Positions 11,679 through 51,717 of a stretch of DNA of 64,000 nucleotides are shown piece after piece; the first letter of the stretch is position 1; each line of letters begins with the position of its first letter. Made by a program: the position numbers and the translations under genes. This DNA comes from a virus (lineage: Duplodnaviria; Heunggongvirae; Uroviricota; Caudoviricetes): the IMG/VR virus record IMGVR_UViG_3300028887_000087. One strand, written 5' to 3'. The notes below the pieces were generated by a model. The model was not told the origin of the DNA, did no database searches, and saw nothing but the letters and a program-made list of their open reading frames with translations.

Positions 11679-13175
11679 ATGGCAGAAGAGTTTCTTAAAA
11701 AAGTATATGACCGCTACTTGGGTTCTGATTATGAATTCGGTGATTCTGACTTAAACCCAAAAAGAGAAATTTCAAAAACTAATCTTGAAGAGTTGGAGCT
11801 TGAAGAAGATGCAATTATGGAAAAAATTGCAAATCGTCTTCGTGAGCTTCACGCAATGGCGACATCTCTGCCAAAGTACAAAGTTCCTGAAAAGATTGAT
11901 AACGATGACTTCAAGACAGAGTCTTCAGGTGCAGGTTTAGGACCTGACCCAAACCCAGAAGTAAATGCAAACGAACTCGCAATGAAATTGAGTTTGGGTG
12001 GTGACCCAACTGATACTCACTTATTGCTCCCAGGCGGTGGACTTGATTCTCAGGTTGACTTCTTGGTAGGCGAACTTGAAAACATTCTTATAAACGTTCT
12101 TGCAGTTTCTCCTCCTGAGCCTGGGCCTGGGCCATTCCCTGGGGGTGGTGGTGACTTAACACAATTATACAACCCTGGGTGTGATGACTTCGATGACGAT
12201 GGCAATGAAGAGTTTGAAGACCAAAGTAATCTTCTCGACGATTTGAAAAAAGGTATCAACGCATCTCTTAATTCCGATGGAAACGGAGATGACGACAGTG
12301 GCAACGAAGATGATGACGGTGGCAGTGGCGGTGGAGAAGCAAAAAAGAAAAGTGCTGCTGAAGCTGCTGACGATTCTGCAGGTGAAAATAACGCAAATAG
12401 AGACGCTGCCGCTGCTGAAAGAGAAAAAGAAGTTGTTGAATGTATTGCAAAAGAACTTCCTATTCTTTCGGCTATTCTTGCAATCTTAAAAGTTGTAAAT
12501 GTTCTTAAGAAAGTTCTTCTCTTAATTCTCACAATTGTTGTTCCTATTGTAAAGATGATTACTTTTGCTGCTCAGTGTTGGATTAACCCTCCTGCTGCAG
12601 GACAAGTTATTCAAATGGTAGCAGAAAAAATTGCAGCTTTACTTATTTCAGCAATCGGTGAAATTTTGCAAATGCTTTGGAATATGTTGGAACTTGATTG
12701 TAAGACAGAACAAGTACAGTCAGTACTTGACCAAATAAATGAAGTTCTTTCAGGTATTTCAAGTTCAATCAGTTCAACAAAGTCTGCTGCTATCAGTTTT
12801 GCAAATCAAGGTAAAGCTTTGGCAAATGAACTTGCTGATGCGTTTAGTAAAGACAAGTTTGAGCAAGGTGCTGAAAACTGGAAAAATGCAGTTAAGTCTT
12901 GGGCTGAAGAAGATTCTTGGAATCAGGGTAAAGAAGCATTCAATCAACAACTTTTTGGTGGAGAAGGCTTCTCAGGCGCAGGACTTGAAAATCTTATGTC
13001 GAAAGCTCTCCCACAAGATATTAAGAGTAAACTTAATAATGTTATCAACAGTACTAAACAAGTGGTTGATAATACAAAGAACGCAGTTAAAGAAGTTGAT
13101 ACTGAAGATAAGACAGGTGTTCAGCAGAAACTTAACGACCTTGCTTCATTCTTAGGTCCTTTCAGCGTAAAATAA
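11679..13175 (+). CDS. acidic low-complexity (D/G/P-rich) protein with central hydrophobic TM helices; possible internal virion/ejection protein
   Basis: PEPGPGPFPGGGGD, DGNGDDDSGNEDDDGGSGGG then ILSAILAILKVVNVLKKVLLLILTIVVPIV. Confidence 0.55.
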   Translation: MAEEFLKKVYDRYLGSDYEFGDSDLNPKREISKTNLEELELEEDAIMEKIANRLRELHAMATSLPKYKVPEKIDNDDFKTESSGAGLGPDPNPEVNANELAMKLSLGGDPTDTHLLLPGGGLDSQVDFLVGELENILINVLAVSPPEPGPGPFPGGGGDLTQLYNPGCDDFDDDGNEEFEDQSNLLDDLKKGINASLNSDGNGDDDSGNEDDDGGSGGGEAKKKSAAEAADDSAGENNANRDAAAAEREKEVVECIAKELPILSAILAILKVVNVLKKVLLLILTIVVPIVKMITFAAQCWINPPAAGQVIQMVAEKIAALLISAIGEILQMLWNMLELDCKTEQVQSVLDQINEVLSGISSSISSTKSAAISFANQGKALANELADAFSKDKFEQGAENWKNAVKSWAEEDSWNQGKEAFNQQLFGGEGFSGAGLENLMSKALPQDIKSKLNNVINSTKQVVDNTKNAVKEVDTEDKTGVQQKLNDLASFLGPFSVK

Positions 13176-13201: not shown

Positions 13202-16200
13202 TTGATGAATTTAGATAACTTTTTTGACGGTACCGCAACAGATTGGACATCCCTTACAGGTGCTATTAAACAGAAGAAGTCTGTAAACGAAAGCTTCTTC
13301 AAAAAGATGTACGATGCTGCTGGGAAGACACCTCGATACAACACAGTAAAAGATGCTTATGGAAATTATGTAAATGTTCCTATCTCTGATACAAATGGCA
13401 CAGGCGCAGTTGCAAACGGTAAAAACGAATGGACTTTATCTGAGTTTTTGAATTTGCAAAAAGCTGGCGAAGATAGTGCTGAACTTGCATCTTACCTTGA
13501 CCTCAAAGGTTGGACATTAAGATCACTTGGCGATGACGCAGGTGAAAAGCTCAACAATCAAATAAATACTCAAGCTGCTTTACAAGTTATTCAAAACTTT
13601 TATGATATGTACATATCTCCTGTAGGTGAAACTGATGCAAAGTATCGTCTTGGTGATGTCACAGGTAAAGCAAAGCCGGGGACTGTAAATAATCAGACTG
13701 ATGAGTTCGGCCGTTTAAGAACTCGTGCGCTTTTCAATTCAAAAGTTGATTATAAAGAATGGGAAGGAACTTCTCTTAAAGATAAGACAGAATATTATTC
13801 TGTTATTTGGTTCCCACCTTATTCTCCATTAAATATTAAGCCTACTTCTTGGAAAGGCATCAGTACAAAAAAGTATGATAAAGCCACAGGTCTTGAAGTT
13901 GATAACAACGGCTATCTTCTTGATGCAACAGGTCAGCGTATTAAGTACAGAGGCGAAGACGGTAAATTGTATTACAGAAAGTCACAAGGTGAAACTTCTT
14001 CTGTAAGTACAATGACAATGAAAGATTACCTTGCACAAGCAAAAGATAAAAGACAAAAAGAACTTGATGAAAAGAATCAAGAGTTGCGTGATGACGGAAA
14101 AGAGGTAACTGTTACAGAAGCTGAAGACACTCGCCTTGCAATCAAAAACGAAACAGACAAGTATTACGATACTTATGATATGGAAAGTGGTCTTGCTGCT
14201 CGTTCTTCATTTACATATCGTGCGCCTGGGTTTAAGGCAATCAATGACAATATCAATATGTTGCAGTGGGTTCTTGAAGGTATGTCAGGTATCGTTTCAA
14301 CATATCTTACAGAGTGGGACCTTTCAATATATCTTCAGGAAGGTTTAGTGACTAATACTGAAAGCACTTTGCCTAACATTATTATGTTGACACACCGCTT
14401 GGATAAGGACAATCCTAATCAATACGGATGGAAAGATTCAGAAGGAAATCCTGATGACCGTGCTGCATCTTGGGGTGTTATCAACTGTGCCATTTCAAAA
14501 ATATACGGTGACAATCATAAGTCTTGGATAATCAACGCCTATCCTTATGCACAATGGCATACACTTTATCCCGACCCAACTGCAATGTCAGGTTGGCTTG
14601 ATAAGATTACTGCTGCTGATGGTACAACTGCTTATGTACCAAACTATTATAGAATTGCAAAGGCAGGCTTACGCAATTACTTGGAAGGAAAAGATAATCA
14701 CGGAAGAGTAAGAGGCGATTCAGTTCAGAACAGATTGATGTTCCAAGATTTTGAAGGTGCTGCTCTTTCAGGTTATAAAGAATGGAATTACGGCAACAAA
14801 ATTTGGAAAGCATTGTACACGTCTGCTGACGATGGCTTCTCTGATGTTGATATTCTTTTCTTGCAGACTGCAATCGGTCTTTATCACAAAAGAGATTTAA
14901 TTGAAGATGTTCAGATAATCAATTACCAAGTAGGTGGAAACGGTGAGCCTTATGATGGCTATGATATGATTGTCGGTGGTAACGATGCTTCAGGTAATGG
15001 TCAGAACACAGGTTATTCTTTCAATGACCCAGAAGAAGGTTCGGGTGGTAATAAGTACTGCCCAGGCTCAGTTTTCAAAGGTGCGTTGACATTCTTAAAT
15101 ATGTTCAATAAGAGAGACTCGTCAAAAGAGTCAGCACTTTCAAGAGCAGGCGCAAACGGTGACGGAAGCGTAAGTGAAAACAAAAATGTATATGGTACCA
15201 TTCAGGATTCTCTTGGTGCAACAAAAGCTGCGAGCTCAAACAATGCTATTGATGAAGGTGCTGAACACGCATACTTGTTAGGTACTGATAAAGGTCTTAC
15301 AGATAATTCAAACGGTGTTGGTGTACCTCAGTATAACCCAACACTTTATGGTGGACCTCACTCTTATTACCGTTCACCAAAATCATATCAATCTTACTAT
15401 CAGGAAAACAATATCTTCTTAAGAAATGTTCCTCGTATTGATAAGTGTCCTGACAGCTTTGACCACGATGCAGATAATGGTATTACTTGGCCATCACTTC
15501 CAAACTGGCAGGATAACTATTATTACAAAGGAAACGAAAAATGGTGTTCAAATGTTTCAGCTGTTGTAAACGGTGAAAGACAAGCTTATGAGCAATCTTG
15601 GTCTGCAGGTCTTGCAAGACTTAAAAAAGGACATCATAGTACAGGTGAAGTTCCTGCATATCTTCGTGTAAAAGTTTACAGTGATGTTGAGTTCTATGCA
15701 CAGCTTCAGTGGCACTGGGGTTGGAATTATTGGCACTGGGGTTGGTGGGAATGGAGATGGACTCGTCCAACACATTTCTCAAACGGTGAGCCTTATCATT
15801 ACGAAGGTTATGGTTGGTGGCAATGGTTCCACAAAGACCTCGGCTTGACTTCAAGTTGGTGGTGGTACGGTTGTTGGAATCACGGTTGGTACGATTACTA
15901 TTGGAATAGATATTATAATTACTCTTGGTATTACCGTTGGGAATGGACAGGCAACTGGTGGGGTTGGCGTTTGTCTGTTGCTTATTATGCGCCTTGTCAA
16001 AGAGCTTGGCATTATGAATGGAAATTTACAACATTCAAAAGATATGTACTCCATTCAGAGCCAAATGCGCCTTGGAGAATTGTTCAAACAAGACATTACG
16101 AATCTTATTTGCCAAACAACTCAAGCAGCGTATTTAAGAACGCTTGGAATAATTCTTATAGGGCATTATTCGGCTATTCAAGAGATTATGCGTACCTCTT

Positions 16201-19114
16201 TGCAACACAACCTAATGAGGATTACGAATTATTTGTAGACGGACCTCAAGGCGGCAATTATTCTAATTGGAGCATCCTCAATGAAGCAACAGGACAGGTG
16301 TTGAATGTTTACCAAACTAACGCTGAACACAATATTATGACAAGTATTGTTGACTGGTGGGGCGGTATGATTGGTGCGCACAACAAAGCATTCTTCTTGA
16401 CAAGAGATGGTGCGGGTCGTCCTGATTGTTTGTTCCGTGCGGAAATATTCCACAATCAAAAGCCAGTTTATTACTTCTGTTTACACTCAAGAACATATTC
16501 TTCAAATAAACGAAAGTATTGGTGGGAAAGACACTGTGGTTGGAAAACTTATATGTCTGTTAAGTTGTACTCAACTGACAGATTCTGGGCGGGACTTTCA
16601 AAGCCAACATTTACAAACTATGGTTCAGTAAATAACGGTGAAGAATCTATCGGTGTATCTTCTCCTCCTATTGATGGAAACGTAACTGCAGAAACTGCAA
16701 ACAACTCAATTCTTTCTGTAATGGGCGTAGGCTACACAGGTACAAATTGTTGCGAAACAAGAAAGACACCTTACGACCTTATCACAGGAATTACAGGAAG
16801 AGAAATTCCGTTATTTGATACAACAATCGTAGCAGACGGTATCGTCGGTGCTGACCGTATGATTGCATCTTATAACGGTATCTCAGGTGTAGGTATTATC
16901 GGTGACATCCCAGGCCTTGACTTTGAGGCAGATGACGGCGCGGAAATATATTCAAATAAATGTTGTTCTAAACAAAAAGCAGCTGATATGAACGGCGGCT
17001 CTTGGATGGATGTTGCTTTCAAAAATATAAGATTCCCAATGTGGCAGATTTCAGGTTGGATAAACAAAGGTGAAGTCACAATCAACGGAAACACTTATCG
17101 TCCTGAAGGAAACGGTTTTGCAATTTATAGTGAAATAACACCTCCTGATTGGTGGCACGCAATGATTCTCAATATGGGGTTGAGAAACACATTCTATCGT
17201 GGCGATGCAAACGGTCCTTTAAGAGTTAACTTCAAGGTTCTTCAGTACGGTATTGATGTTGAAGGAAAGAGCTTTGCTGATGCACTTACTTATATTGAGT
17301 CAAGAGGCTGTACAGTACAATCTGCTGCAGGTTCATTCAAGATTAAAGCAAGTGACATCAGAACTTATACAACAGTTAAACGTTTAGTCACATTAAGCAA
17401 AGATGGCGTTGAGTACGTTGAAAATCACGACATCGTAGACACAGTTTACTTAAAGAATGCTTGGTCTGCATTGAAGTATTATTTTACTTCTTTCGACATC
17501 GCACCAAGATTCTTGTATAATATTCTTGCAACACAAGAAGGTTATCTCAACTTTGCAAAAGACTTTATCTGCGGTAAAGATGAACACGGTCAGTACATTG
17601 TTTCATTTGACTTTATTCGTAAAATGATTGAAGGTACTGCAAAATCTCCTGGGCTTATTTCACCAAGAACTTATTATCTTGCTGACCCAAGAAAGAATTA
17701 TATTGCGGACCCTAATGGTGATGTAATTATCAATGAGAAAACAGGTTCTCAAAGTTCTCTTAATAGCAACGGTACTCTTCCTGCAGGTTGTATTAAAGCT
17801 TCTTGGTGTGAAGATATTTATGGCTATAATCCTTGGATTAAGACAGCTCGTGAATGGTTCTGCAACAGCCCTTCAGAAAATCAAAGATTGCACGATGACT
17901 TAGGTTTAGTACTTGACCAAAGAAAGAATACAATTCTTAAAGTACAACGTTTGCTTGAGCCTTATCTTTATATGGATATGGGTTCATATTCATACAACAG
18001 TATGAACACAGCTTGGAAGTCAGTAAATGAATTTATTGATTTGAAAACAAATGAAGAGCCTGAAAGATTCTTACTTGCTTACCTCAACGTATTGTATGAA
18101 GCAAGAAGATACTTTATCAATAAGAGATGTAATAAACAGGACGGTACTTTATGGATGTGTCGTCACCTTGAGAAGATGCTTCCTCAGGTTATCGGTTCCG
18201 CTGTTGCATCTGCAGGTACTGTTGATATGACAGCATTCCAAGGTAAGTCTTCAAAGATTGATGTTTCATTCTATGAAATACAAAATACACTTGCTATGAA
18301 AGCTGATGTTCTTAAGAAGCAGGCACAAGGTTCAAATGCAGAACTTGAGCCTGATAGAATTAAGACAGTTTATGTCAAGGTTAAATATGTTTCTTATGAA
18401 AGATACTTGGCTTGTCAAGCAAAACTCAAAGACGGTACATTAAAGCGCACTGACGAAAGAGTTGTTCCTGTTCAGCCTATTGCTTTCGTTAAGAAAAGAG
18501 ACGGTTCTTTCAAGAATAAAGCAAACGGTGATAAACTTGCTGCTGATGAAACTTGGAATGAAAACGGCTGGGCAATTAGAAAAGGTAAGATTAAGTACGC
18601 AGTTAAACCTGAAGACGGTGTTTATAAATTGTATTCAGTTGAAAAGCACCGTGATGAAGATAACGCTGCAAAGAAACTTCAAAATCCAAACGGTCCATAT
18701 ATCACATACGACTATGATGATGCAAAATGGAATATTGATTGGAGTAAGATGGCTGAAGATAATCAAATCCTTTTCAATTATTATGGCGGCGTTGATACTT
18801 CTGCTCTCAAGGATTTGACTGCAAGTGGTGAGACTGACCCACAGGCACTTCTTTGTGGTGCAAAGCAAGCAGCAGACTATTGGATCATTCCAGTTCAAAG
18901 TGCTTTGCCTAGAGCAATCGGTTATCGTTCTCAACTTACACTTGAAATGATAACAGATGGAAGTATTGGTATGGAAGGCGTATCAACAAAAGACAACCCA
19001 GTTGCTTTGGTTGGTGCTTCTGCTTATGCTATGTGGCCAATCGTTGAAGATCAAACAGACGTTATGCCAAATAACGGTGACTTTGCTAAAATTATGAGCG
19101 GTTTAGGAGCATAA
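13202..19114 (+). CDS. giant protein (1970 aa) with Trp-rich aromatic segment; probable virion structural protein
   Basis: Uninterrupted 5.9 kb ORF, AGAGG RBS; WHWGWNYWHWGWWEWRW... segment; no RNAP DxDGD motif. Confidence 0.7.
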   Translation: MMNLDNFFDGTATDWTSLTGAIKQKKSVNESFFKKMYDAAGKTPRYNTVKDAYGNYVNVPISDTNGTGAVANGKNEWTLSEFLNLQKAGEDSAELASYLDLKGWTLRSLGDDAGEKLNNQINTQAALQVIQNFYDMYISPVGETDAKYRLGDVTGKAKPGTVNNQTDEFGRLRTRALFNSKVDYKEWEGTSLKDKTEYYSVIWFPPYSPLNIKPTSWKGISTKKYDKATGLEVDNNGYLLDATGQRIKYRGEDGKLYYRKSQGETSSVSTMTMKDYLAQAKDKRQKELDEKNQELRDDGKEVTVTEAEDTRLAIKNETDKYYDTYDMESGLAARSSFTYRAPGFKAINDNINMLQWVLEGMSGIVSTYLTEWDLSIYLQEGLVTNTESTLPNIIMLTHRLDKDNPNQYGWKDSEGNPDDRAASWGVINCAISKIYGDNHKSWIINAYPYAQWHTLYPDPTAMSGWLDKITAADGTTAYVPNYYRIAKAGLRNYLEGKDNHGRVRGDSVQNRLMFQDFEGAALSGYKEWNYGNKIWKALYTSADDGFSDVDILFLQTAIGLYHKRDLIEDVQIINYQVGGNGEPYDGYDMIVGGNDASGNGQNTGYSFNDPEEGSGGNKYCPGSVFKGALTFLNMFNKRDSSKESALSRAGANGDGSVSENKNVYGTIQDSLGATKAASSNNAIDEGAEHAYLLGTDKGLTDNSNGVGVPQYNPTLYGGPHSYYRSPKSYQSYYQENNIFLRNVPRIDKCPDSFDHDADNGITWPSLPNWQDNYYYKGNEKWCSNVSAVVNGERQAYEQSWSAGLARLKKGHHSTGEVPAYLRVKVYSDVEFYAQLQWHWGWNYWHWGWWEWRWTRPTHFSNGEPYHYEGYGWWQWFHKDLGLTSSWWWYGCWNHGWYDYYWNRYYNYSWYYRWEWTGNWWGWRLSVAYYAPCQRAWHYEWKFTTFKRYVLHSEPNAPWRIVQTRHYESYLPNNSSSVFKNAWNNSYRALFGYSRDYAYLFATQPNEDYELFVDGPQGGNYSNWSILNEATGQVLNVYQTNAEHNIMTSIVDWWGGMIGAHNKAFFLTRDGAGRPDCLFRAEIFHNQKPVYYFCLHSRTYSSNKRKYWWERHCGWKTYMSVKLYSTDRFWAGLSKPTFTNYGSVNNGEESIGVSSPPIDGNVTAETANNSILSVMGVGYTGTNCCETRKTPYDLITGITGREIPLFDTTIVADGIVGADRMIASYNGISGVGIIGDIPGLDFEADDGAEIYSNKCCSKQKAADMNGGSWMDVAFKNIRFPMWQISGWINKGEVTINGNTYRPEGNGFAIYSEITPPDWWHAMILNMGLRNTFYRGDANGPLRVNFKVLQYGIDVEGKSFADALTYIESRGCTVQSAAGSFKIKASDIRTYTTVKRLVTLSKDGVEYVENHDIVDTVYLKNAWSALKYYFTSFDIAPRFLYNILATQEGYLNFAKDFICGKDEHGQYIVSFDFIRKMIEGTAKSPGLISPRTYYLADPRKNYIADPNGDVIINEKTGSQSSLNSNGTLPAGCIKASWCEDIYGYNPWIKTAREWFCNSPSENQRLHDDLGLVLDQRKNTILKVQRLLEPYLYMDMGSYSYNSMNTAWKSVNEFIDLKTNEEPERFLLAYLNVLYEARRYFINKRCNKQDGTLWMCRHLEKMLPQVIGSAVASAGTVDMTAFQGKSSKIDVSFYEIQNTLAMKADVLKKQAQGSNAELEPDRIKTVYVKVKYVSYERYLACQAKLKDGTLKRTDERVVPVQPIAFVKKRDGSFKNKANGDKLAADETWNENGWAIRKGKIKYAVKPEDGVYKLYSVEKHRDEDNAAKKLQNPNGPYITYDYDDAKWNIDWSKMAEDNQILFNYYGGVDTSALKDLTASGETDPQALLCGAKQAADYWIIPVQSALPRAIGYRSQLTLEMITDGSIGMEGVSTKDNPVALVGASAYAMWPIVEDQTDVMPNNGDFAKIMSGLGA

Positions 19115-20155: not shown

Positions 20156-20386
20156 ATGACGGGTACTTGGTTCAAAAGAACAAATGTCAAAGACGTCCTT
20201 AATGCTGTTGAGGACATCCTAACAAAAGAGTTCGTTTACGAAGTCAAGATTGAAAAACTTGGTAGCGGAGACGAAGTTATTTACAAACTTAAAGCGTATG
20301 TTTGTGAGGATGATGTTCGAAAGCTCAATGAGTTCCTTTACGAAAAGGGTTGGGCTAACGACCTAGAAACTTTATCTAAAAGATGA
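20156..20386 (+). CDS. hypothetical protein (~76 aa; TTG alt 20087)
   Basis: ATG 20156 after GGAGG RBS. Confidence 0.45.
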   Translation: MTGTWFKRTNVKDVLNAVEDILTKEFVYEVKIEKLGSGDEVIYKLKAYVCEDDVRKLNEFLYEKGWANDLETLSKR

Positions 20387-21126
20387 ACACAAAAACAATA
20401 AAAATTGAAAAAGAAAAAGACATTAAGAAATGTCGCAAAATCGATGACGTCCTTTATGTAGCAGAAATGATGAGCTACGATGGGAATATTATGCCTAAGA
20501 GTTTTGAAGGTTCGATTGGCTTATCTTGTGTGATATGTGGCGAACAAACAAAAATCATTGGTGAAAGAGCTTTTGCGAATTGCAAAAATTTAATTCGTTT
20601 TGATGGGTTTCCTGAAATTATTGCAAAGGAAGCTTTTTCTTTTTGTTCACGATTAAAGAACTTCAATTTTTCAAATGTTGCAAACTTATCAGAAAGTTCA
20701 TTTGCTTATTCAGGCCTTGAAACAATCGACATCCCAAGTAATATCAAAAACATCCCAAGTAATTGTTTCGCAGGCTGTCTTAATCTGAAATCAATCAACT
20801 TAAATGAAGTTGAACAAATTGAAGATGAAGCTTTTCAAACTTCAAGCTTAAGATATATCAAAATACAAAATCCGTTGGAACAGATTGGCAAAAAAGCTTT
20901 TGAAGGCAGTATGGTTTTGACTGACATTTTTGTTGAAAGAATCTTGCCGCCAAAAATCTTTTCTTCAACTTTCTACGGTTGTCCTATCCGCAATATTTAT
21001 TTTTATTCTGATGTTCAAGTTGACTTCTTTATAAGAGATAAGAATTGGTCTAAGTATCAAGATTACTTCAAAGTCATTTCGCCTAAAGATGCCAAAGTAC
21101 TTATCAATAACTTAAGGAGCCTTTAA
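20383..21126 (+). CDS. BspA-type leucine-rich repeat (LRR_5-like) protein
   Basis: Repeats FANCKNL / FSFCSRL / FAGCLNL / AFEGS every ~22-25 aa. Confidence 0.6.
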   Translation: MNTKTIKIEKEKDIKKCRKIDDVLYVAEMMSYDGNIMPKSFEGSIGLSCVICGEQTKIIGERAFANCKNLIRFDGFPEIIAKEAFSFCSRLKNFNFSNVANLSESSFAYSGLETIDIPSNIKNIPSNCFAGCLNLKSINLNEVEQIEDEAFQTSSLRYIKIQNPLEQIGKKAFEGSMVLTDIFVERILPPKIFSSTFYGCPIRNIYFYSDVQVDFFIRDKNWSKYQDYFKVISPKDAKVLINNLRSL

Positions 21127-21224: not shown

Positions 21225-22856
21225 ATGATAGACTACAAAAAATATTTCCCGTATGATAATATTCGTCCTGAGCAGGAAAGAGTGTTGTCTGAAATTGTAA
21301 AGAACTGGGATAACAAGAAGTATTTTATTTTGCAATGCGATGTTGGTACAGGTAAGTCGGGTATTGCAAAAACAGCCGCAAATTGGTGTGAGAACTCTTT
21401 TATCATTACAGAAACAAAACAACTTCAGCAGCAGTATGTTGATGACTTTGCTCACGAAAGAAATATGGTTTCTATCAAAGGTAAAGCAAATTACCCTTGT
21501 GATAGAAATGGTCGCCTCAACTGTGAAAATGGTCCTTGTACATTAAGAAAAGCAAGTGCAGAGCCGCCTAAGTGTATGTTCACTTGTAAGTATTATTCTC
21601 TTCGAAAGAAAGCTCTTGCATCTCAAATTGTACTTACATCTTATGCATATATTTTCCGCGCCTTCGATTGCAGTAATTTATGGAAGCCAAGAAAGTTGAT
21701 GGTTTTTGATGAGTGCCATCTTATCGAAGACCAACTTATCAATTTTGCTTCTTTTACAATTGACCCAGAACATCTTGATAAAATGTACGGCTTGTTTGAC
21801 AATCTTCCCGATAGAGATATGCACATTCAGCGTTTCACTGAAGATGGTTGGACAGAAAGTAATAAAGCAAGATTTGCTGTGACTTACGCTGCAGTTGTAA
21901 ACAAAAGAAATGAATTATTTGATATGATGAAAGAGGAACTTGGAGAAGACAACCCTGAGGACCTTGACGAAGATACTCTTGACATCTTATCAAAAACACA
22001 TAAGCTTTATTACGATATTGATAAACTTTACAAAAAGATGGAAGTATTCAACTTTCAGAAGAAAGATGATTGGATTGTTGCTTGCGATACTGAAGGACAT
22101 TTGACATTCACTCCATTAAATGTAAATTCTTTGTTCCATAAGTTCTGTAATAACTGGGCTGAAAAGTTTATCTTTATGTCTGCAACAATTCTTGACACTG
22201 ATGGCTTTATAAAAGAATTAGGTATTGACCCTAATCAGTGTCTTGTCGTAAAAGTTGAATCTTCTTTTGACCCAAGTAAGTCTCCTATTTATTTTATGCC
22301 TTGCGGAAGTATGAGTTATCAAAACATTGAAGAGTCTCTTCCTAAAGCTTGTCAGGCAATCGACTTTATTATGCAAAAGAAGCCAAACGATAAAGGCATT
22401 ATTCATACAGGCAATTATAAAGTTGCTGATAAAATATGGAATAGCATTCTCATACATAAACACAATCACGACCGCTTCTTAATAAAAGCAAGTGAAGATG
22501 TGACAAATCAAAACTTGTTGAAGATACACGAAAGATCACAGAACACTGTTCTCCTTTCGCCTTCAATGACAACGGGTGTTGATTTGAAAGATGACTTATC
22601 AAGATTCCAAATTGTTGTCAAAATGCCATTCTCTTCACTTGGTGACCCAAGAACAAAAAAGAAGTCTGAAATCAATTCTGATTGGTATACCTGTCAGATG
22701 TTGAAGAATTTGGTTCAAGCTTGTGGACGTTCAACTCGTTCAGCGGAAGACCATTCTGCAACTTTCATACTTGACTCTTCATTCCGTTATTGGGTAACGA
22801 AATATGAAAAGTGGCTTCCTAAGCAATTCTTACAAAGGATAAAAGGGTTCGACTAA
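21225..22856 (+). CDS. XPD/DinG/Rad3-family Fe-S ATP-dependent DNA helicase
   Basis: Walker A DVGTGKSG; 4-Cys cluster CDRNGRLNCENGPC...C; DECH box VFDECH; motif VI QACGRSTRS. Confidence 0.8.
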   Translation: MIDYKKYFPYDNIRPEQERVLSEIVKNWDNKKYFILQCDVGTGKSGIAKTAANWCENSFIITETKQLQQQYVDDFAHERNMVSIKGKANYPCDRNGRLNCENGPCTLRKASAEPPKCMFTCKYYSLRKKALASQIVLTSYAYIFRAFDCSNLWKPRKLMVFDECHLIEDQLINFASFTIDPEHLDKMYGLFDNLPDRDMHIQRFTEDGWTESNKARFAVTYAAVVNKRNELFDMMKEELGEDNPEDLDEDTLDILSKTHKLYYDIDKLYKKMEVFNFQKKDDWIVACDTEGHLTFTPLNVNSLFHKFCNNWAEKFIFMSATILDTDGFIKELGIDPNQCLVVKVESSFDPSKSPIYFMPCGSMSYQNIEESLPKACQAIDFIMQKKPNDKGIIHTGNYKVADKIWNSILIHKHNHDRFLIKASEDVTNQNLLKIHERSQNTVLLSPSMTTGVDLKDDLSRFQIVVKMPFSSLGDPRTKKKSEINSDWYTCQMLKNLVQACGRSTRSAEDHSATFILDSSFRYWVTKYEKWLPKQFLQRIKGFD

Positions 22857-22867
22857 ACTAAATTTAT

Positions 22868-23815
22868 ATGTTTAAGTTTAGTGACAACTCTTACATTGAA
22901 GGTCAGCTCGACCTATGTCAAACATTAAACAATAAATATGCCTCAATGGACGATTGTTTCTTCGAGCCTCAAGGCTATGATCTTGAGCGCTATGAAGAAA
23001 ATAGCGCTTTAGGAATTAAAAGAATTGTATTTGAGGCAGGAAAGAATTACGATTATCATAGTGACCGCGACACTGTACTTGCATATTGGAGAGCACGCGG
23101 TCGCCCTAAAGGCAACAATGCCGTACTTCACAAGTTTGAATATACAAACAAAACAAACCAAACCGCACAAGTTTTCGTTACTTATTATGACCACTTTCAA
23201 AATAATGAATTAAGCTATTACGATTGGAACGGAAACTATTGTCCTTATTTTTTTACAAGTTATTCAAGCGGCAGCAGTAGCAGTAGCGGTTCTTATGAGT
23301 ACGACTTCAGTGGTGATGGTGATATTGACGCAAGAATTCATTGCAAAAGAAATTATCGGTACGTAGAAGTAGCTTATTCTTGGACAACAGGTTGGTGGTT
23401 CTGGGAAGAGACACACTGGGGCACAAGAATGGAATGGAGATGGGAAGATGATTACACAACAGACTGCTCTGATAATAACCGTATAACATTTAAGTATTGT
23501 GATTTACCTCCTGGGCAAAATGTTGAAATTTATTTGAGTGGTGAAGATGGCAATTCGATACCTGACCCAGAATGTTATTTGAAAGTTGAAGTTATTTTTG
23601 ATGGCGATCTTCCTGAGGCCTCAGAAAAACCTGCTAATGAGCCAGCTACTGACCCATTCACAAAAGAAAGCTTAAATGGTTGTATAAATAATCTTAATCT
23701 TAAATGGGTTGAAGATAAGACATCTGACTCAAGTATCAATAATATGAACTTTGGTTGGGTTGATGATAAAGTTGATAATGAAGCAACAATTATGAATATG
23801 CATTGGAGAATTTAA
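22868..23815 (+). CDS. hypothetical protein with Trp-rich motif (WTTGWWFWEETHWGTRMEWRWEDD), likely structural
   Basis: ORF; Trp-rich motif resembling giant protein segment. Confidence 0.5.
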   Translation: MFKFSDNSYIEGQLDLCQTLNNKYASMDDCFFEPQGYDLERYEENSALGIKRIVFEAGKNYDYHSDRDTVLAYWRARGRPKGNNAVLHKFEYTNKTNQTAQVFVTYYDHFQNNELSYYDWNGNYCPYFFTSYSSGSSSSSGSYEYDFSGDGDIDARIHCKRNYRYVEVAYSWTTGWWFWEETHWGTRMEWRWEDDYTTDCSDNNRITFKYCDLPPGQNVEIYLSGEDGNSIPDPECYLKVEVIFDGDLPEASEKPANEPATDPFTKESLNGCINNLNLKWVEDKTSDSSINNMNFGWVDDKVDNEATIMNMHWRI

Positions 23816-26619
23816 TGGCTGAGTGTACTATTGTTTATCACGGAAGAGGCATATATAAATTAAACTCAGGTACTATCGTTAGCTTGTATGGCGGTGAGGC
23901 TACTTATAGCTTTAATGTAAGTGACAGCGTTAACATCAGCGATATAGGTACTTATATCAGAAGACTTTCTCCTCTTGATATATTTTACGATGCAGACCCT
24001 TCAATGCCTATGCCTATTTGGGTTAAAGATAACAGTGTTTCAAAAAGTAAATTAAGAAGCTATAATGGGCCTCTTGACTTATACATTGACCATTGTGAAG
24101 ATGGATTTTATAAAGGCGATAATAAAATTCGTTATGTGACAGTAAAGTCAGGTGAAAATGAAAATGCTGTTGAAATGTTTGCAAATTGTAGCAACTTAAA
24201 AGGTGCAAGAATTGAAACAGTAAATGTCTCAGACGCTTCTTCAATGTTTGCAAACTGCGAATCTTTAGAGGACATATCGGGTTTTCAAAGACTTGTAAAT
24301 ACAACAGCTGATTATATTTTCAGTAAAGATAAAAAACTTGCAAAGACTTTAGGTAAGAAAGGCGTTAAAGATACAATCGACGTTTTAGGACACGGACCTG
24401 AATGGTACGACGGCTTAAACAGAACATACTTCTGGGATTGCCCTTATAATGGAACTTTACCTGAATGGCTTGCAAATCAAGCACAAAGCGGCGCTGATTA
24501 TGATTGGCAAAAAAGTCAAGATAATTTCAATCCAAACATTCTTATCTTAAAAGCTATCAATAGTGTACCGTTGAAGAATAGGCTTGATACGCTTAATGAA
24601 ACAAGCACACCTAACCCAGATATAAAATCAGAAATTGACTTTATTGATGACTCAGAAGATAACTTACTTAATCTCCATTTTGATAACACCAATTATAGTG
24701 TGTCTTTTGATACTGAACTGCCTATCAACGGAACTGACCCTTCAAACTGGGTTCGTCAGGACCCTCATATAAGTATGACTGATAATTATGAGGACAAAGT
24801 AAAAGGCATTCAAAATCTTTTATACAACCTTAAAGATATATGGGACTATGGCGCTTTTGAAAATACAAAAGATCCAACACTTGAACTCAATACATCAGTT
24901 GTTCTTAATATGGAACATAATGGTCCAAAGCTTAATGATGTAATATCTCCTATATGGGACCCTGATGATAATTTCAGATTACATCTTAAAGAACTTGATA
25001 TTTCAAATACTATTAAAGAAACTAAAACAATTCAAGAGCATTACTGGGATGGACCTCATACATATAATGATAAAAGAATAAACAATAATAATTGGATTAA
25101 CGCCAATTTATTTATACCTGAAGGCGCTGAAAATACAGAAAGATGGTACAACTGGGTTATAATTGATACTATCACACATCTTGAAGGCAATTATGAAGAA
25201 CTTCGGGGATGGTGGATTGCAACAAAACGGATTCAGACAAAACACGAACCTGTATATGAATATCGTATTACGAATACGCAATATAACACAGGGTCTTACT
25301 TTTGGGTAAAAGATATTGATGAATGGAAAGAAGTCCCATATTTTGTAAGAAGAACTTATAATAATCAAGGACAAGAAATAGGCAACCCACAGCAGTATGA
25401 ATGGCCTTATCAAAAAGTTACTTGGACTCCTACAGGCGCGCCCAACAATAGCGCTTGGTATATCAGAGGAAGTGAAAGAACAGTCAACTATCGTAATTAT
25501 GTTGAAGCTTGGCCTCGCCCATATTATATTGACAAAACGCGTCCTCTTAATATTCAAGTACCTAAGAAAGTTAGATTACAAGACTCTGATTGTCCTGCTC
25601 AAGACATAAGCGGCATTTTCAAAGATGTACCTTATATTAAGACAATTGATTTCTCTATCAATAAAATAACAAAAGCTGATGAACTCTTTATGAATTGTAA
25701 AAATATTGAGTCAGCAATCGGTTCAATAGCAAATCAAGGACGTATTAAAGTTGAAAGTGCAAAACATATTTTTGATGGTGCTTTTATTACAGACCCACAT
25801 ATAGACTTTGTTGTTGATACACTTGATGCTGAAAGTGCTTTTGAAAACTCAGGTGTTGTTGACCCAACATTCTTTACAAGCTGGTCTTCAGTATTGAACG
25901 GTAATAAATTATTTAAGAACTCAAAAGTTGGAAGTCTTAGAAATGCAGTATTCCCAGAAGGAATACAAACAATTGCAGAAGCTTTTGCTGATTGTGAAAA
26001 CCTTGTTGATGTTGAAGGTAATTGGCTGCAGCCTAACTCAAGTATGCATTACCAAAACTATACATATCACTTGGACACAAACTCTTGGACAAAAGACTGG
26101 GTAAATCCTACAAGTAAAGATGGGTACTTCTATTTCCCAGATAGTGTTCAAGATATTCACAGTCTTTTCAAAGATAGCGGACTTCAATCAGTAAAAGAAT
26201 TAGCTTTGTTGCGTTTTGGTAATAACGATAATGTATTTGATGGCTGTCATAATCTTACTGAAATTGAAAATCTTTACTTAAATGAAAATCCTAATTATGG
26301 CAACATCTTCTATGATACACCTAATCAAAATAAAGATTGGAGAATTTGGTTCCCAACAAACATTAAAAGTTCTTACGCAAATGCAGCCGATATTGGTCTC
26401 GACCCTTATAAAGTCCCTAATCTTTATTGTGATGATGGCTTTATTGTTGTTGATAATGAATCACCCGATTCACAGGTTTATAGACGAGTTGCTTATGAGG
26501 CTGTTCTTAATCCTGAAAGAAAGTTTAAGTTTAATTACTTTTCTCATATACATCCTCATACAATTGACAACAATCGTTTCTATCACGAGATACACGATGT
26601 GGACGTTTGGTATAAATAA
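23815..26619 (+). CDS. large putative structural protein (934 aa) containing BspA-type LRR repeats
   Basis: GGAGAA RBS, TAATG coupling; FANCSNL / FANCESL / FMNCKNI / FADCENL repeats. Confidence 0.55.
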   Translation: MAECTIVYHGRGIYKLNSGTIVSLYGGEATYSFNVSDSVNISDIGTYIRRLSPLDIFYDADPSMPMPIWVKDNSVSKSKLRSYNGPLDLYIDHCEDGFYKGDNKIRYVTVKSGENENAVEMFANCSNLKGARIETVNVSDASSMFANCESLEDISGFQRLVNTTADYIFSKDKKLAKTLGKKGVKDTIDVLGHGPEWYDGLNRTYFWDCPYNGTLPEWLANQAQSGADYDWQKSQDNFNPNILILKAINSVPLKNRLDTLNETSTPNPDIKSEIDFIDDSEDNLLNLHFDNTNYSVSFDTELPINGTDPSNWVRQDPHISMTDNYEDKVKGIQNLLYNLKDIWDYGAFENTKDPTLELNTSVVLNMEHNGPKLNDVISPIWDPDDNFRLHLKELDISNTIKETKTIQEHYWDGPHTYNDKRINNNNWINANLFIPEGAENTERWYNWVIIDTITHLEGNYEELRGWWIATKRIQTKHEPVYEYRITNTQYNTGSYFWVKDIDEWKEVPYFVRRTYNNQGQEIGNPQQYEWPYQKVTWTPTGAPNNSAWYIRGSERTVNYRNYVEAWPRPYYIDKTRPLNIQVPKKVRLQDSDCPAQDISGIFKDVPYIKTIDFSINKITKADELFMNCKNIESAIGSIANQGRIKVESAKHIFDGAFITDPHIDFVVDTLDAESAFENSGVVDPTFFTSWSSVLNGNKLFKNSKVGSLRNAVFPEGIQTIAEAFADCENLVDVEGNWLQPNSSMHYQNYTYHLDTNSWTKDWVNPTSKDGYFYFPDSVQDIHSLFKDSGLQSVKELALLRFGNNDNVFDGCHNLTEIENLYLNENPNYGNIFYDTPNQNKDWRIWFPTNIKSSYANAADIGLDPYKVPNLYCDDGFIVVDNESPDSQVYRRVAYEAVLNPERKFKFNYFSHIHPHTIDNNRFYHEIHDVDVWYK

Positions 26620-38935: not shown

Positions 38936-40417
38936 ATGACAATTAAAGATCAGTTCAAAGCAAAAGTCCTCGAGCCTATTGATGAAGCAGGCTTCAAAGC
39001 TTACTTTGTAGGCGGTTGTGTTCGTGACTTTTTGATGGGCGTTGAGCCTCACGATTACGATATTTGCACAACTGCAACCCCTGAAGAATTGCACAAAATC
39101 TTTGATAAGTTTTCAAATGTTTCAGCAAACAGTGAGCCATTCGGTGTTACGATGCCGCTGATTGAAATTGATGGAAAGCTTGAAGAAGTTGAAATTGCAA
39201 CTCTCCGCAAGGATATTACAAAAGGACGACATCCAAAAATCGAGTTTACTCGTGACATCAAAGAAGATGCAGAACGCAGAGATTTTACTGTGAATGCCCT
39301 TTACGAAGATATTGACGGTTTTATTTTTGATATGGTTGGCGGCGCTCAGGACATCAAAAACAGAACATTACGTTTTGTTGGAAATGCTCAGGACCGCATC
39401 GATGAAGACCCATTAAGAATATTCCGTTTTGTTCGTTTCCTTGCTTCAAAAGGTTTCAAGTCAGCTTACACAAAAAGAGAAGTTCTTGATTGGAATTTTT
39501 CTTTTACTGAAGTATCTGCTGAAAGACAGCTGAAAGAGTTAGAGAAAACTTTTGCAGGTAAGTTTTTATTCCCAGATACTTGGGAGTTTGTTTTAGCAGC
39601 AAGAGTTTTAACTCCGTTAGGATTAACTTCGATTATGGTTGACCTGCGAAATATTGTTCAGTCTTGGATGTGGCACGCTGAGGGTTCAACTTGGACAAAA
39701 GACGGAAAGGATTTCAAAGGCGACGAGATAACAGATTTTGACGGTTTTGTTCCTGCAACCCACGGAACTGCTTGGGACCATACACTGTTAGTTATGAAAA
39801 GAATGGCAGAGTTATCAAAAGACTTAGACGAGCACACTCGTTTCGTAATGATGATGGCTGCTTTCTTACACGACATCGGTAAGGCTCATTCAAAGCTGGG
39901 CTTAAAAACAAATACTTTCAAAATTGGAAGCAAAGAGTTTACTGAGACAATTCCTAAGGTTTCTGACCACGATGTTGTTGGCGCTCCTATTGCATACGAT
40001 ATTTGCAAAAGTATCGGTATGACAAACGATGACAGTGAGACAGTTCGCGAGCTGGTTGGCTTACATATGCGAGCTCATCAGTTAGGTGATATGAAATCAA
40101 AGAAGGCAATCTGGGAGATTACTTCAAACCCTATTTTCGATAAACTGGTTATGTTAGCAAAGGCTGATGAGTCAGCTTGTGTTAAGACAGTTGACGATGC
40201 TTGGGTTGGTATTGAGAAATCTTTAGAGAAGCCTATCATTCAGTCAGTTATCGGTAAGCCAATGCCTAAGCCAATTATTACAGGTCAGTTCCTGATTGAC
40301 AAAGGCAGAACTCCTGGGCCAAAGTTTAAGCATATCTTAGATGTTGCATTAAAGATGCAGATTGACAAGGATATGACTGATGCTGAGGCAATTTACAAAA
40401 TTGTGAAAGGATGCTAA
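38936..40417 (+). CDS. cca: CCA-adding enzyme / poly(A)-polymerase-family tRNA nucleotidyltransferase with HD domain
   Basis: GGCVRDFLMG...DYDICT head motif; RRDFTVNAL; HD motif AFLHDIGK. Confidence 0.8.
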   Translation: MTIKDQFKAKVLEPIDEAGFKAYFVGGCVRDFLMGVEPHDYDICTTATPEELHKIFDKFSNVSANSEPFGVTMPLIEIDGKLEEVEIATLRKDITKGRHPKIEFTRDIKEDAERRDFTVNALYEDIDGFIFDMVGGAQDIKNRTLRFVGNAQDRIDEDPLRIFRFVRFLASKGFKSAYTKREVLDWNFSFTEVSAERQLKELEKTFAGKFLFPDTWEFVLAARVLTPLGLTSIMVDLRNIVQSWMWHAEGSTWTKDGKDFKGDEITDFDGFVPATHGTAWDHTLLVMKRMAELSKDLDEHTRFVMMMAAFLHDIGKAHSKLGLKTNTFKIGSKEFTETIPKVSDHDVVGAPIAYDICKSIGMTNDDSETVRELVGLHMRAHQLGDMKSKKAIWEITSNPIFDKLVMLAKADESACVKTVDDAWVGIEKSLEKPIIQSVIGKPMPKPIITGQFLIDKGRTPGPKFKHILDVALKMQIDKDMTDAEAIYKIVKGC

Positions 40418-51104: not shown

Positions 51105-51701
51105 ATGGAATATATAGACTATAACGTAAGAGACGCCTTTAAAACAAAGGCAACTGAAAACGGCAGAAGCACTGATTACATCAATTTATATATGCTCATA
51201 TATGAATTCAGCGATGACCGCCACGGCTACGATTGGGACAAAAGAGAAAAGTACTTTAACGACCTTCAGGATTTCGTAAAACATTTTGAAGGCGAAGGTA
51301 TTGTAGGCAGTCAAAGTGATTTAAGGGATTGGGACTTTGAAAGTCAGCAACCTTTTTATCAAAAAGGTGATATTGAGTGCGTCAGCATAATGGCTCCCGA
51401 AGATGACTTCTTTGTAAGAAACCTTCTTGATGCATTAAATCCTCTCGATTATGCAATTGAATACAGAAAAATGGCTCCTCGCAAAATTACAAAATTGCCA
51501 AAAGACGCATACGGAACTGAAGTCGAGATTGGCGATATTGTTGTTTGGGAAGGCGCTGCACACAGAGTTAAAAGTATCATTTCCGAAATAACGATAAACA
51601 AGAAAAGAATGTTTACCCGTGATTGTGTTGTTGTAAGAACAAATAACCCAAACAAGAAACTTGGCTGGGTTGAATATATTGATAACGGCAGAAAAGAATA
51701 A
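51105..51701 (+). CDS. hypothetical protein (198 aa)
   Basis: ORF after class-1 motif. Confidence 0.5.
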   Translation: MEYIDYNVRDAFKTKATENGRSTDYINLYMLIYEFSDDRHGYDWDKREKYFNDLQDFVKHFEGEGIVGSQSDLRDWDFESQQPFYQKGDIECVSIMAPEDDFFVRNLLDALNPLDYAIEYRKMAPRKITKLPKDAYGTEVEIGDIVVWEGAAHRVKSIISEITINKKRMFTRDCVVVRTNNPNKKLGWVEYIDNGRKE

Positions 51702-51717
51702 TTGGAGGTTCACTTAT

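What the first reader, a model, noticed from the sequence alone, without database searches (positions are those of the whole stretch)
15700..15975. Extraordinary tryptophan-rich segment inside the 1970-aa giant protein, echoed in a second protein
Residues encoded at about 15.70-15.98 kb read YAQLQWHWGWNYWHWGWWEWRWTRP...GYGWWQWFHKDLGLTSSWWWYGCWNHGWYDYYWNRYYNYSWYYRWEWTGNWWGWRL, which is more than 30% Trp over about 90 aa. A shorter related motif, WTTGWWFWEETHWGTRMEWRWEDD, occurs in the 315-aa ORF at 23378-23452. Trp-rich WxW arrays of this kind bind membranes (puroindoline- or indolicidin-like) or carbohydrates. In a virion giant protein this may be a membrane- or cell-wall-engaging module used during genome delivery.
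Basis: seen in the sequence. Interest (0 to 1): 0.55.

Follow-up and report, generated by a model that had tools for sequence, protein, structure and literature searches.

The report
Tryptophan-rich sheet in giant phage protein
A 93-residue stretch that is one-quarter tryptophan is real, is kept by selection and is predicted to be folded, and it lies inside a 1,969-residue protein of an uncultivated jumbo phage; it most likely holds a beta-sheet subdomain together, while the protein's function and any membrane or cell-wall binding remain unproven.

Summary
The Trp-rich segment exists: giant-ORF residues 832-924, nt 15695-15973. It has 24 W in 93 aa (26%, not >30%) and 49% W/Y/F/H. This is far beyond chance (P about 1e-19).

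It is not an assembly artefact. Near-identical copies occur in independent metagenome assemblies.

It is the extreme case of a family-wide Trp/Tyr hot spot. The hot spot sits 100-250 aa after an invariant GGPH motif in about 90 clusters of 1,000-3,150-aa proteins. These come only from metagenomic, mostly jumbo-phage contigs. None has a Pfam, PHROG, PDB or BFVD relative.

AlphaFold predicts ordered beta-strands with Trp/Tyr at alternate positions and almost no aliphatic residues. Motifs such as WEW-TGN-WWGW resemble tryptophan zippers. In close relatives all 12 substitutions avoid the 38 W/Y.

My best reading is an aromatic zipper or core that stiffens a beta-hairpin subdomain.

The giant gene always follows a ~490-aa gene with transmembrane-like helices and weak tape-measure/hub hits. 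This gives only moderate support for a tail or ejection role. Membrane or cell-wall binding is untested.

The "echo" in the 315-aa ORF is compositional only, not homologous, and is partly deleted in a near-identical phage.

The parts
13205..19114 (+). Giant ORF of 1,969 aa. The ORF list starts it at TTG 13202, but the ATG at 13205 follows an AGAGG ribosome-binding site and matches the homologs' MN... start.
   Evidence: 36 full-length homologs were found. There is no Pfam, PHROG or PDB sequence hit. There is no transmembrane-like stretch: the highest Kyte-Doolittle 19-aa mean is 0.99.
15695..15973 (+). Trp-rich segment, residues 832-924. It has 24 W, 14 Y, 6 H and 2 F, only 5 aliphatic residues, 6 K/R and 6 D/E.
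   Evidence: Predicted strands are 832-839, 847-854, 872-883, 906-915 and 920-948. Predicted helices are 887-890 and 895-903. All W/Y are invariant in relatives of 93-98% identity.
15710..15760 (+). Lineage-specific Trp hairpin insertion WHWGWNYWHWGWWEWRW (residues 837-853). It contains an exact 15-nt duplication, TGGCACTGGGGTTGG, at 15710-15724 and 15731-15745.
   Evidence: Columns 841-844 are gaps in 15 of 16 distant homologs. The direct repeat is family D2. The segment matches the WxW..WxW pattern.
15938..15967 (+). Tryptophan-zipper-like hairpin WEW-TGN-WWGW (residues 913-922).
   Evidence: Regex match. DSSP strands 906-915 and 920-948 are joined by a 4-residue turn. W920 and W922 are conserved in distant homologs.
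15599..16606 (+). Folded part of the central domain (residues ~800-1135). It is a beta-rich domain with very long amphipathic strands and hosts the aromatic hot spot.
15326..15439 (+). Highly conserved motif PQYNPTLYGGPHSYYRSP...LRNVPR (residues 709-746) with invariant G-G-P-H. It is predicted unstructured when the domain is modelled alone.
   Evidence: Invariant columns are listed. pLDDT is below 50. The motif served as the positional anchor for the hot spot in 108 family representatives.
11679..13175 (+). Partner gene of 498 aa. It has a conserved N-terminus, an acidic low-complexity region, strongly hydrophobic helices (residues ~258-335) and a helical C-terminus. It lies immediately upstream of the giant gene in every locus examined.
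   Evidence: It is adjacent in 21 of 21 loci. The Kyte-Doolittle maximum is 2.61. PHROG hits to baseplate hub or tape measure families are weak, in 5 of 13 members, with a best E of 1e-4.
23381..23452 (+). Second Trp-rich motif, WTTGWWFWEETHWGTRMEWRWEDD, inside the 315-aa ORF 22868-23815. This is a compositional echo only.
   Evidence: There is no homology to the giant's segment. The motif lies in a variable insertion site, and 12 residues are deleted in the L001 ortholog.

Best explanation
The segment is the most tryptophan-loaded version of an ancient Trp/Tyr hot spot. The hot spot lies in the central beta-rich domain of a giant protein family found only in uncultivated, mostly jumbo phages. 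This copy probably belongs to a ~306-kb phage binned with gut Clostridia.

I propose that the aromatic residues are structural. They occupy every second position of antiparallel strands. With almost no aliphatic residues available, they stack across strands, in the manner of a tryptophan zipper, and against two short aromatic helices. Together these would form the only hydrophobic layer of a rigid beta-hairpin subdomain. The polar residues between them would face solvent and be free to drift.

This lineage added Trp by small in-frame duplications and by replacing surface polar residues.

The following are shown: the composition, its conservation, its fixed position, the predicted order and the selection on W/Y. 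The following are inferred: the cross-strand Trp packing, and that the giant protein, with its obligatory membrane-helix partner, is a tail or ejection component.

Whether the aromatic layer also contacts membrane or cell wall is open.
For: - The segment is real and non-random.
- The hot spot is family-wide. In 108 representatives W is 6-7.5% and Y 12-13% in the 100-250 aa after GGPH, against about 2% and 6% elsewhere. The richest 90-aa window falls there in 39 of 43 members that have >=10 W.
- Conserved W columns (846, 872-875, 886-888, 892, 920, 922) extend to homologs of 20-30% identity. Several of this protein's W/Y columns hold I, L, V or F in relatives (853, 865, 907), as buried positions would.
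- AF2 predicts strands and helices with pLDDT of about 55-92, not disorder. 14 of the 24 W lie in strands and 4 in helices.
- There are only 5 aliphatic residues against 46 W/Y/F/H.
- WxW-turn-WxW patterns occur at 837-853 and 913-922. Taking a regular register from the DSSP boundaries pairs W915 with W920 and W913 with W922. The trpzip definition is from PMC10593748.
- In relatives of 93-98% identity the segment changes faster than the rest of the protein (87% against 93%). All 12 substitutions avoid the 38 W/Y; the chance of that is about 0.002.
- TGG enrichment raises local GC to 47% in a 37.5% GC genome. This runs against the mutational bias.
Against: - No model coordinates were available, so burial, cross-strand Trp contacts and hairpin register were not measured.
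- The model rests on only 32 sequences and has a mean pLDDT of 70.
- No fold relative exists to anchor it.
- About 10 of the window's aromatic positions are polar in homologs. These suggest extra surface aromatics that a pure core role does not need.
- Some family members have almost no Trp in this region: 0-3 W in P0034, P0058 and P0032. The domain can therefore fold without a Trp layer.
- A virion role is supported only by weak PHROG hits and by synteny in distant relatives. In this clade the neighbours are replication-type genes.
Confidence: 0.45

Rival explanations
1. The Trp array would be an exposed module that partitions into the membrane interface or binds cell-wall polymers. A virion tail-tip or ejected protein would use it during genome delivery.
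For: - The segment has the most favourable Wimley-White interfacial free energy in the protein: about -39 kcal/mol over the segment and -14 kcal/mol for the best 19-aa window.
- About 10 aromatic positions replace polar surface residues of homologs.
- The obligatory upstream partner has transmembrane-like helices and weak tape-measure/hub hits.
- A tail-tube gene lies two genes upstream in L003, and L010 has a weak sheath hit.
- MAG binning hints at a Gram-positive Clostridia host.
Against: - No membrane-active or carbohydrate-binding family matches, even at relaxed thresholds.
- Net charge is zero, unlike cationic Trp peptides.
- The non-aromatic strand face is polar and variable. The aromatic face is therefore the one most likely packed rather than free.
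- The giant protein has no transmembrane segment.
- Virion location is unproven, and the local neighbours are DnaB, a methylase and a helicase.
Confidence: 0.25
2. The aromatic face would be a protein-protein interface. The long amphipathic strands of the central domain would assemble with other copies, or with the partner protein, into an oligomeric sheet or barrel such as a baseplate or channel component. The Trp/Tyr would line that interface.
For: - The model has very long amphipathic strands of 19-29 residues.
- The GGPH region is highly conserved yet unstructured when modelled alone, which suggests a partner is needed.
- The gene is strictly coupled to the ~490-aa gene.
- W/Y are invariant while the other strand face varies.
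Against: No multimer prediction could be run. Sequence in the hot spot is poorly conserved and indel-prone across the family, which is unusual for a specific interface. Trp content ranges from 0 to 26 residues.
Confidence: 0.15
3. The giant protein would not be a virion component at all. It would act inside the infected cell, for example in a membrane-associated replication or takeover complex with its transmembrane partner. The Trp cluster would be purely structural.
For: In this clade the gene pair sits among DnaB, an IstB-like ATPase, a C5 methylase, a DEAD-box-type helicase and nucleotide-metabolism genes, all on one strand. No capsid, portal or terminase gene was recognised in the ORFs of the 64-kb window that were scanned. 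There are many invariant polar or charged residues.
Against: No enzymatic domain or motif was detected. No polymerase-type DxDxD motif is among the invariant columns. Distant relatives place the pair beside tail-tube and sheath-like genes. Gene order in jumbo phages is known to be scattered (general knowledge).
Confidence: 0.15
4. The segment would be chance low complexity, a DNA-level TGG repeat, or an assembly or frameshift artefact.
For: Short direct DNA repeats exist in the segment.
Against: Tandem Repeats Finder finds nothing. The reading frame is open for 1,969 codons. The segment is conserved in independent assemblies. The aromatic trait persists in distant homologs as Tyr, which uses different codons. 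P is about 1e-19.
Confidence: 0.01

Closest known systems
Tryptophan zipper (trpzip) beta-hairpins. These are designed peptides such as SWTWENGKWTWK (Cochran et al. 2001, as described in PMC10593748).
   Same: Both have a WxW-turn-WxW sequence pattern (WEW-TGN-WWGW; WHWGW-NY-WHWGW). Both have a predicted beta-hairpin at those positions, and neither needs an aliphatic core.
   Different: Trpzips are 12-16-residue designed monomers. Here the motifs are part of a 93-aa region inside a ~340-residue natural domain, mixed with Tyr and short helices. Indole interlocking has not been verified.
Cationic Trp-rich membrane-active peptides and domains: indolicidin, tritrpticin and the puroindoline Trp-rich loop.
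   Same: Local Trp density is very high and the calculated affinity for the membrane interface is strong.
   Different: Those are short, strongly cationic and Pro/Arg/Lys-rich. Puroindoline carries its loop on a Cys-rich helical scaffold. This segment has net charge 0, is predicted to be beta-sheet, lies inside a 1,969-aa protein and has no Pfam match.
Aromatic-rich membrane-proximal regions of viral class I fusion proteins, such as the HIV-1 gp41 MPER and the coronavirus S2 pre-transmembrane region (from my own knowledge).
   Same: Both are viral proteins with a clustered Trp/Tyr region that, in those cases, perturbs the membrane during entry.
   Different: MPERs are about 20-residue helical segments directly preceding a transmembrane anchor. 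Here there is no transmembrane helix in the protein, the region is about 90 aa and it is predicted to be beta.
Aromatic cell-wall and choline-binding repeats (CW_binding_1 / YG repeats) of Gram-positive surface proteins and phage lysins.
   Same: Both are beta-hairpin elements rich in G, W, Y and N. The family-conserved stretch NGE-x-Y-x-Y-x-G-xx-WW-x-W loosely resembles one such repeat. The host may be Gram-positive.
   Different: There is no HMM hit even at E<=10, no tandem ~20-aa periodicity and only one such unit.
Large tail-tip or baseplate-hub proteins encoded just after the tape measure gene in tailed phages, such as Tal/gp27-like hubs and T5 pb3; also the phi29 gp9 pore-forming loops (from my own knowledge).
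   Same: The gene lies directly after a helical, hydrophobic-segment protein with weak tape-measure/hub hits. L003 has the order tail tube, unknown gene, partner, giant.

Membership tests
Puroindoline / plant Trp-rich lipid-binding domain (Pfam Tryp_alpha_amyl) | Match to the family HMM: a ten-cysteine helical scaffold carrying a short basic Trp loop. | tested here: not met
   There is no Pfam hit for the whole protein at E<=0.01, nor for 32 central-domain sequences at E<=10. The segment has 1 Cys and is predicted to be beta.
Indolicidin/tritrpticin-type Trp-rich antimicrobial peptides | A short, free, strongly cationic peptide with net positive charge, rich in Arg, Lys and Pro. | tested here: not met
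   The segment has 6 K/R against 6 D/E, so net charge is 0, and 2 Pro. It is embedded mid-protein with no cleavage evidence and is predicted to form ordered strands.
Tryptophan zipper hairpin | The sequence pattern WxW - short turn - WxW. | tested here: met
   There are five overlapping matches at residues 837-853 and 913-922. Only one other match exists in the six-frame translation of the 64-kb window.
Tryptophan zipper hairpin | The motif adopts an antiparallel beta-hairpin. | tested here: met
   DSSP on the AF2 model gives strands 906-915 and 920-948 joined by the turn TGNW, and strands 832-839 and 847-854 around the first motif. pLDDT is about 67-90. This is a prediction, not an experiment.
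Tryptophan zipper hairpin | Cross-strand Trp pairs with interlocked indole rings at non-hydrogen-bonded positions. | not testable with these tools
   Model coordinates are not returned. The register (W915-W920, W913-W922) is inferred only from the strand boundaries.
Cell-wall / carbohydrate-binding repeats (CW_binding_1, GW, SH3b, LysM, CBMs) | HMM match and/or tandem repeat architecture. | tested here: not met
   No hits were found. Tandem Repeats Finder found no repeats. No fold match was found.
Viral fusion-protein membrane-proximal aromatic region | An aromatic-rich stretch immediately preceding a transmembrane anchor. | tested here: not met
   The highest 19-aa Kyte-Doolittle mean in the giant protein is 0.99, so there is no transmembrane-like segment.
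Tape measure / T4 gp29-like hub protein (claim about the 498-aa partner, not the giant) | Significant match to tape-measure or hub families; helical with hydrophobic segments; located between the tube/chaperone genes and the baseplate genes. | tested here: inconclusive
   PHROG hits are weak (best E=1e-4) and occur in 5 of 13 members. Hydrophobic helices are present. The order tube, unknown gene, partner, giant is seen only in L003. A PDB profile search gave only helical-bundle noise.
gp27-like baseplate hub / Tal tail-tip protein (claim about the giant) | An N-terminal hub fold detectable by structure comparison. | tested here: inconclusive
Virion-packaged giant RNA polymerases (crAss-like gp66 / N4 vRNAP) | A conserved catalytic DxDxD (two-barrel enzymes) or the A/B/C motifs of single-subunit polymerases among the invariant residues. 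| tested here: not met
   The invariant columns of the 37-sequence alignment contain no such motif. There is no Pfam or PDB sequence hit.

The most novel reading that the evidence does not exclude
The central domain is a new fold in which natural arrays of tryptophan zippers build a self-supporting, aromatic-faced beta-ribbon. A previously unrecognised two-gene module of jumbo phages, a transmembrane tape-measure-like protein plus this giant protein, uses that ribbon to grip or breach the host envelope, probably that of Gram-positive Clostridia, during DNA ejection.
Probability: 0.12. Interest if true: 0.75.

Novelty: new variant of a known kind. Interest (0 to 1): 0.45.

Why it matters
- **Structural interest.** If the structural reading holds, this would be a natural, evolutionarily maintained counterpart of the designed tryptophan zipper. 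The aromatic load ranges from 0 to 26 Trp across one protein family, which makes it a useful natural series for protein-folding and design work.
- **A new conserved gene pair.** The analysis flags a strictly conserved two-gene module: a ~490-aa protein with membrane helices plus a 1,450-3,150-aa protein. It occurs in uncultivated, mostly jumbo phages. It has no relative in Pfam, PHROGs, PDB, BFVD, 50,697 deposited phage genomes or 72,556 plasmids.
- **Possible entry device.** If the pair proves to be a tail or ejection device, it would be a new solution to envelope penetration.
- **Limits.** As it stands the function is unknown, and un-annotated giant proteins are common in phage dark matter. 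The finding is therefore unusual rather than paradigm-changing.

Tried and rejected
- **Family assignment by sequence.** PHROGs and Pfam on the giant protein, on five distant homologs and on 32 central-domain sequences at E<=10 gave nothing. A PDB profile search with the 37-sequence alignment gave nothing at E<=1.
- **Relatives in cultured or deposited phages.** I ran megablast and tblastn with the giant protein, with four distant family members and with two partner proteins against INPHARED, and with the giant against PLSDB plasmids. There were no matches.
- **Homology of the second motif.** Rejected (BLASTP E=1.3).
- **DNA tandem repeat or artefact.** Rejected.
- **RNA polymerase or other polymerase idea.** I considered this from loose motif resemblances (WDLSxYxQE; RRYFINKRCNK). 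I rejected it because there is no catalytic Asp motif among the invariants and the spacing is incompatible.
- **GDPH-type autoproteolysis at the GGPH motif.** Considered, but the Asp is absent.
- **Neighbour annotation in L002, L003, L008, L010, L012 and L015.** Mostly uninformative.
- **A possible chaperone upstream.** The 231-aa ORF upstream of the partner shows no similarity to the L003 gene in the equivalent position.
- **Literature search.** A search for Trp-rich phage tail proteins found nothing relevant.
Full report
**Observation**

The ORF at 13202-19114 (+) translates without stops into 1,970 codons. An AGAGG ribosome-binding site precedes the ATG at 13205, and homologs start MN... 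The real product is therefore probably 1,969 aa.

The segment holds 24 Trp in 93 residues (25.8%), with 14 Tyr, 6 His and 2 Phe. Aromatic residues make up 49% of it. It has only five aliphatic residues and a net charge of zero. The '>30%' figure holds only for windows of 30 aa or less; 9 of 17 residues are W in WHWGWNYWHWGWWEWRW.

Against a window proteome with 2.06% Trp, the binomial probability is about 1e-19. In 2,000 shuffles of the giant protein the count never exceeded 16.

A six-frame scan of the whole window finds just two places with >=6 W per 30 aa: this one and the motif at 23381-23452 in the 315-aa ORF.

There is no DNA tandem repeat. There is an exact 15-nt duplication, TGGCACTGGGGTTGG, 21 nt apart, encoding WHWGW twice. 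The segment's GC content (47%) exceeds the genome's 37.5%, so the Trp enrichment runs against the compositional bias.

**The echo motif**

The 315-aa ORF has only four homolog clusters. Its Trp motif lies at an indel-prone site. The ortholog in the phage whose giant protein is 98% identical has lost 12 of these residues, and another homolog carries a ~130-aa insertion there. BLASTP between the two Trp regions gives E=1.3. The echo is therefore compositional, not homologous.

**What the giant protein is**

It has no PHROG, Pfam or PDB sequence match. The same holds for five distant homologs.

It has 36 homolog clusters in the 5.8-billion-protein collection, all 1,550-2,115 aa and conserved along the whole length.

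A profile of the central domain, searched against 1.84 billion representatives, finds 89 proteins. Nearly all are 1,000-3,150 aa, with the domain at the same relative position. The module is therefore exclusive to this giant family.

Family members sit on IMG/VR viral contigs of 189-329 kb, on a 579-kb scaffold, and on contigs of 301-306 kb for this protein's own 90% cluster. One 306-kb contig is binned in a Candidatus Fimenecus (Clostridia) MAG. Another relative is binned in a Bacillota MAG. This is a weak host hint.

The window's helicase is 42% identical to Bacillus jumbo phage G gp73.

Neither the giant, nor four distant relatives, nor the partner protein has any match in 50,697 deposited phage genomes. 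The giant has none in 72,556 plasmids.

**Context**

In all 21 loci examined, a ~450-520-aa gene lies immediately upstream of the giant gene. In this window it is 11679-13175. It has a conserved N-terminus, an acidic low-complexity stretch and strongly hydrophobic helices (Kyte-Doolittle 19-aa mean 2.61), followed by a helical tail.

Five of 13 members give weak PHROG hits to baseplate hub or tape-measure families, with a best E of 1e-4.

In the distant locus L003 the order is tail tube (phrog_45, E=4e-15), an unknown gene, the partner, then the giant. In L010 a weak sheath-like hit lies nearby.

In this phage's own clade, however, the pair is flanked by DnaB, an IstB-like ATPase, a C5 methylase, BspA-type LRR proteins and a helicase.

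A tail or ejection role is therefore plausible, but only moderately supported.

**Anatomy of the segment**

AlphaFold2 on residues 696-1135, with a 32-sequence alignment, gives a mean pLDDT of 70. The first ~100 residues, including the invariant GGPH motif, are unstructured. Residues ~800-1135 form a confident beta-rich domain with strands up to 29 residues long.

The Trp segment maps to strands 832-839, 847-854, 872-883, 906-915 and 920-948, and to two short helices at 887-890 and 895-903. Block pLDDT ranges from 55 to 92. Of the 24 Trp, 14 are in strands and 4 in helices. It is not a disordered linker.

In the strands the aromatic residues alternate with polar ones: WHWGW, WEWRW, WQWF, RWEW. 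One sheet face is therefore aromatic and the other polar.

The patterns WEW-TGN-WWGW and WHWGW-NY-WHWGW match the WxW-turn-WxW signature of designed tryptophan zippers (definition in PMC10593748). If the register is regular, the DSSP boundaries pair W915 with W920 and W913 with W922.

**Evolution**

I anchored 108 family representatives on the GGPH motif. Trp averages 6-7.5% and Tyr 12-13% in the 100-250 residues that follow, against about 2% and 6% elsewhere. The Trp-richest 90-aa window falls in this interval in 39 of 43 members with >=10 Trp.

Trp counts in the region range from 0 to 26. The window's protein and its closest relative are the extreme.

Some Trp columns are conserved even at 20-30% identity: 846, 872-875, 886-888, 892, 920 and 922. 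Some of this protein's aromatic columns hold I, L, V or F in relatives. About ten are polar in relatives. The 837-853 hairpin is a lineage-specific insertion.

Between this protein and relatives of 98% and 93% identity, the segment diverges faster than the whole protein: 93.5% against 98.3%, and 87.1% against 93.3%. Yet all 12 substitutions fall on non-aromatic positions and none on the 38 Trp/Tyr. The chance of that is about 0.002.

This is the signature of purifying selection on the aromatic face and a free, solvent-facing polar face.

**Interpretation**

The best-supported mechanism is structural. In a region almost devoid of aliphatic residues, the Trp/Tyr ladder is itself the hydrophobic layer. 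That layer is either a zipper or a core against the aromatic helices, and it stiffens a hairpin subdomain of the central domain. This lineage amplified it by micro-duplication and by aromatic replacement of surface residues.

The segment has by far the most favourable interfacial free energy in the protein, and the partner has membrane helices. But nothing tested here supports membership of any known membrane-active or carbohydrate-binding family. Net charge is zero, and virion location is unproven.

Two further readings remain as rivals: an oligomer-interface reading and a non-virion reading. Artefact is excluded.

**Verdict**

The functional interpretation cannot be decided computationally.

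The feature is an unusual natural variant of aromatic-zipper beta structure. It sits inside a conserved but entirely uncharacterised two-gene module of (mostly jumbo) phages.

Interest is moderate at 0.45. It would be high only if the envelope-penetration reading were shown.

Noticed in passing
window 11679-13175 (and directly upstream of the giant gene in L001-L020): A ~490-aa gene is adjacent to the giant gene in 21 of 21 loci. It has a conserved N-terminus, an acidic low-complexity region, transmembrane-like helices and weak tape-measure/hub PHROG hits. The pair behaves as an obligatory two-gene module with no relatives in deposited phage genomes.
   Followed up: partly
window 15326-15439 (giant residues 709-746): The motif PQYNPxLYGGPHxYYRSP...LRNxPR is the most widely conserved piece of the family, with invariant G-G-P-H. 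AlphaFold nevertheless leaves it unstructured. The most distant profile hits (P0104, P0105, P0110, up to 3,149 aa) share only this motif. It may be a partner-binding or processing site.
   Followed up: partly
P0033, P0026, P0041, P0027, P0056 (family members; central domain downstream of the FKRY motif): Other lineages carry additional Trp-rich or Trp/Arg-rich stretches at different positions of the same domain. Examples are RRRWRWWGWRRWRGWGGWRGWWRR in P0033 and WYWNWWWRGWWSWFGW in P0041. Aromatic enrichment therefore moves around within the domain.
   Followed up: no
window 49996-51078: An adenylosuccinate-synthetase-like gene. Its PHROG hit (phrog_1211, E=2.5e-28) is to a family annotated with the PurZ-type activity used for 2-aminoadenine genomes. 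PDB matches are only to ordinary PurA N-termini (E about 1e-8). PurZ versus PurA is not resolved.
   Followed up: partly
window 51661-53025, 60522-61769, 38936-40417: A nicotinamide phosphoribosyltransferase-like gene, a cytidylyl/nucleotidyl-transferase gene and a tRNA nucleotidyltransferase gene. This is an NAD-salvage and tRNA-repair gene set typical of large phages.
   Followed up: no
window 20383-21126 and 23803-26619: Two BspA-type leucine-rich-repeat proteins (Pfam LRR_5, E=2.5e-55 and 2.6e-8) flank the helicase and the 315-aa ORF. These may be host-surface or host-protein interaction modules.
   Followed up: no
window 21225-22856: A DEAD/XPD-type helicase (phrog_2488, E=9e-117) that is 42% identical to gp73 of the 497-kb Bacillus phage G. 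It is the closest link to any cultured phage.
   Followed up: partly
window 1-64000: Essentially all sizeable ORFs lie on the + strand. No tRNA genes were found in the 64 kb. No capsid, portal or terminase gene was recognised among the ORFs that were scanned.
   Followed up: partly
window 22868-23815 versus L001 19664-20572: The 315-aa ORF has a Ser-rich stretch and a hypervariable insertion site between conserved blocks. Its Trp motif is partly deleted in a near-identical phage, and one homolog (P0040) has a ~130-aa insertion at the same place.
   Followed up: yes
L003 16411-18108: An IS200/IS605-type element (Y1 transposase plus an OrfB/TnpB-like gene) sits just downstream of the giant gene in a distant 166-kb relative.
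   Followed up: no
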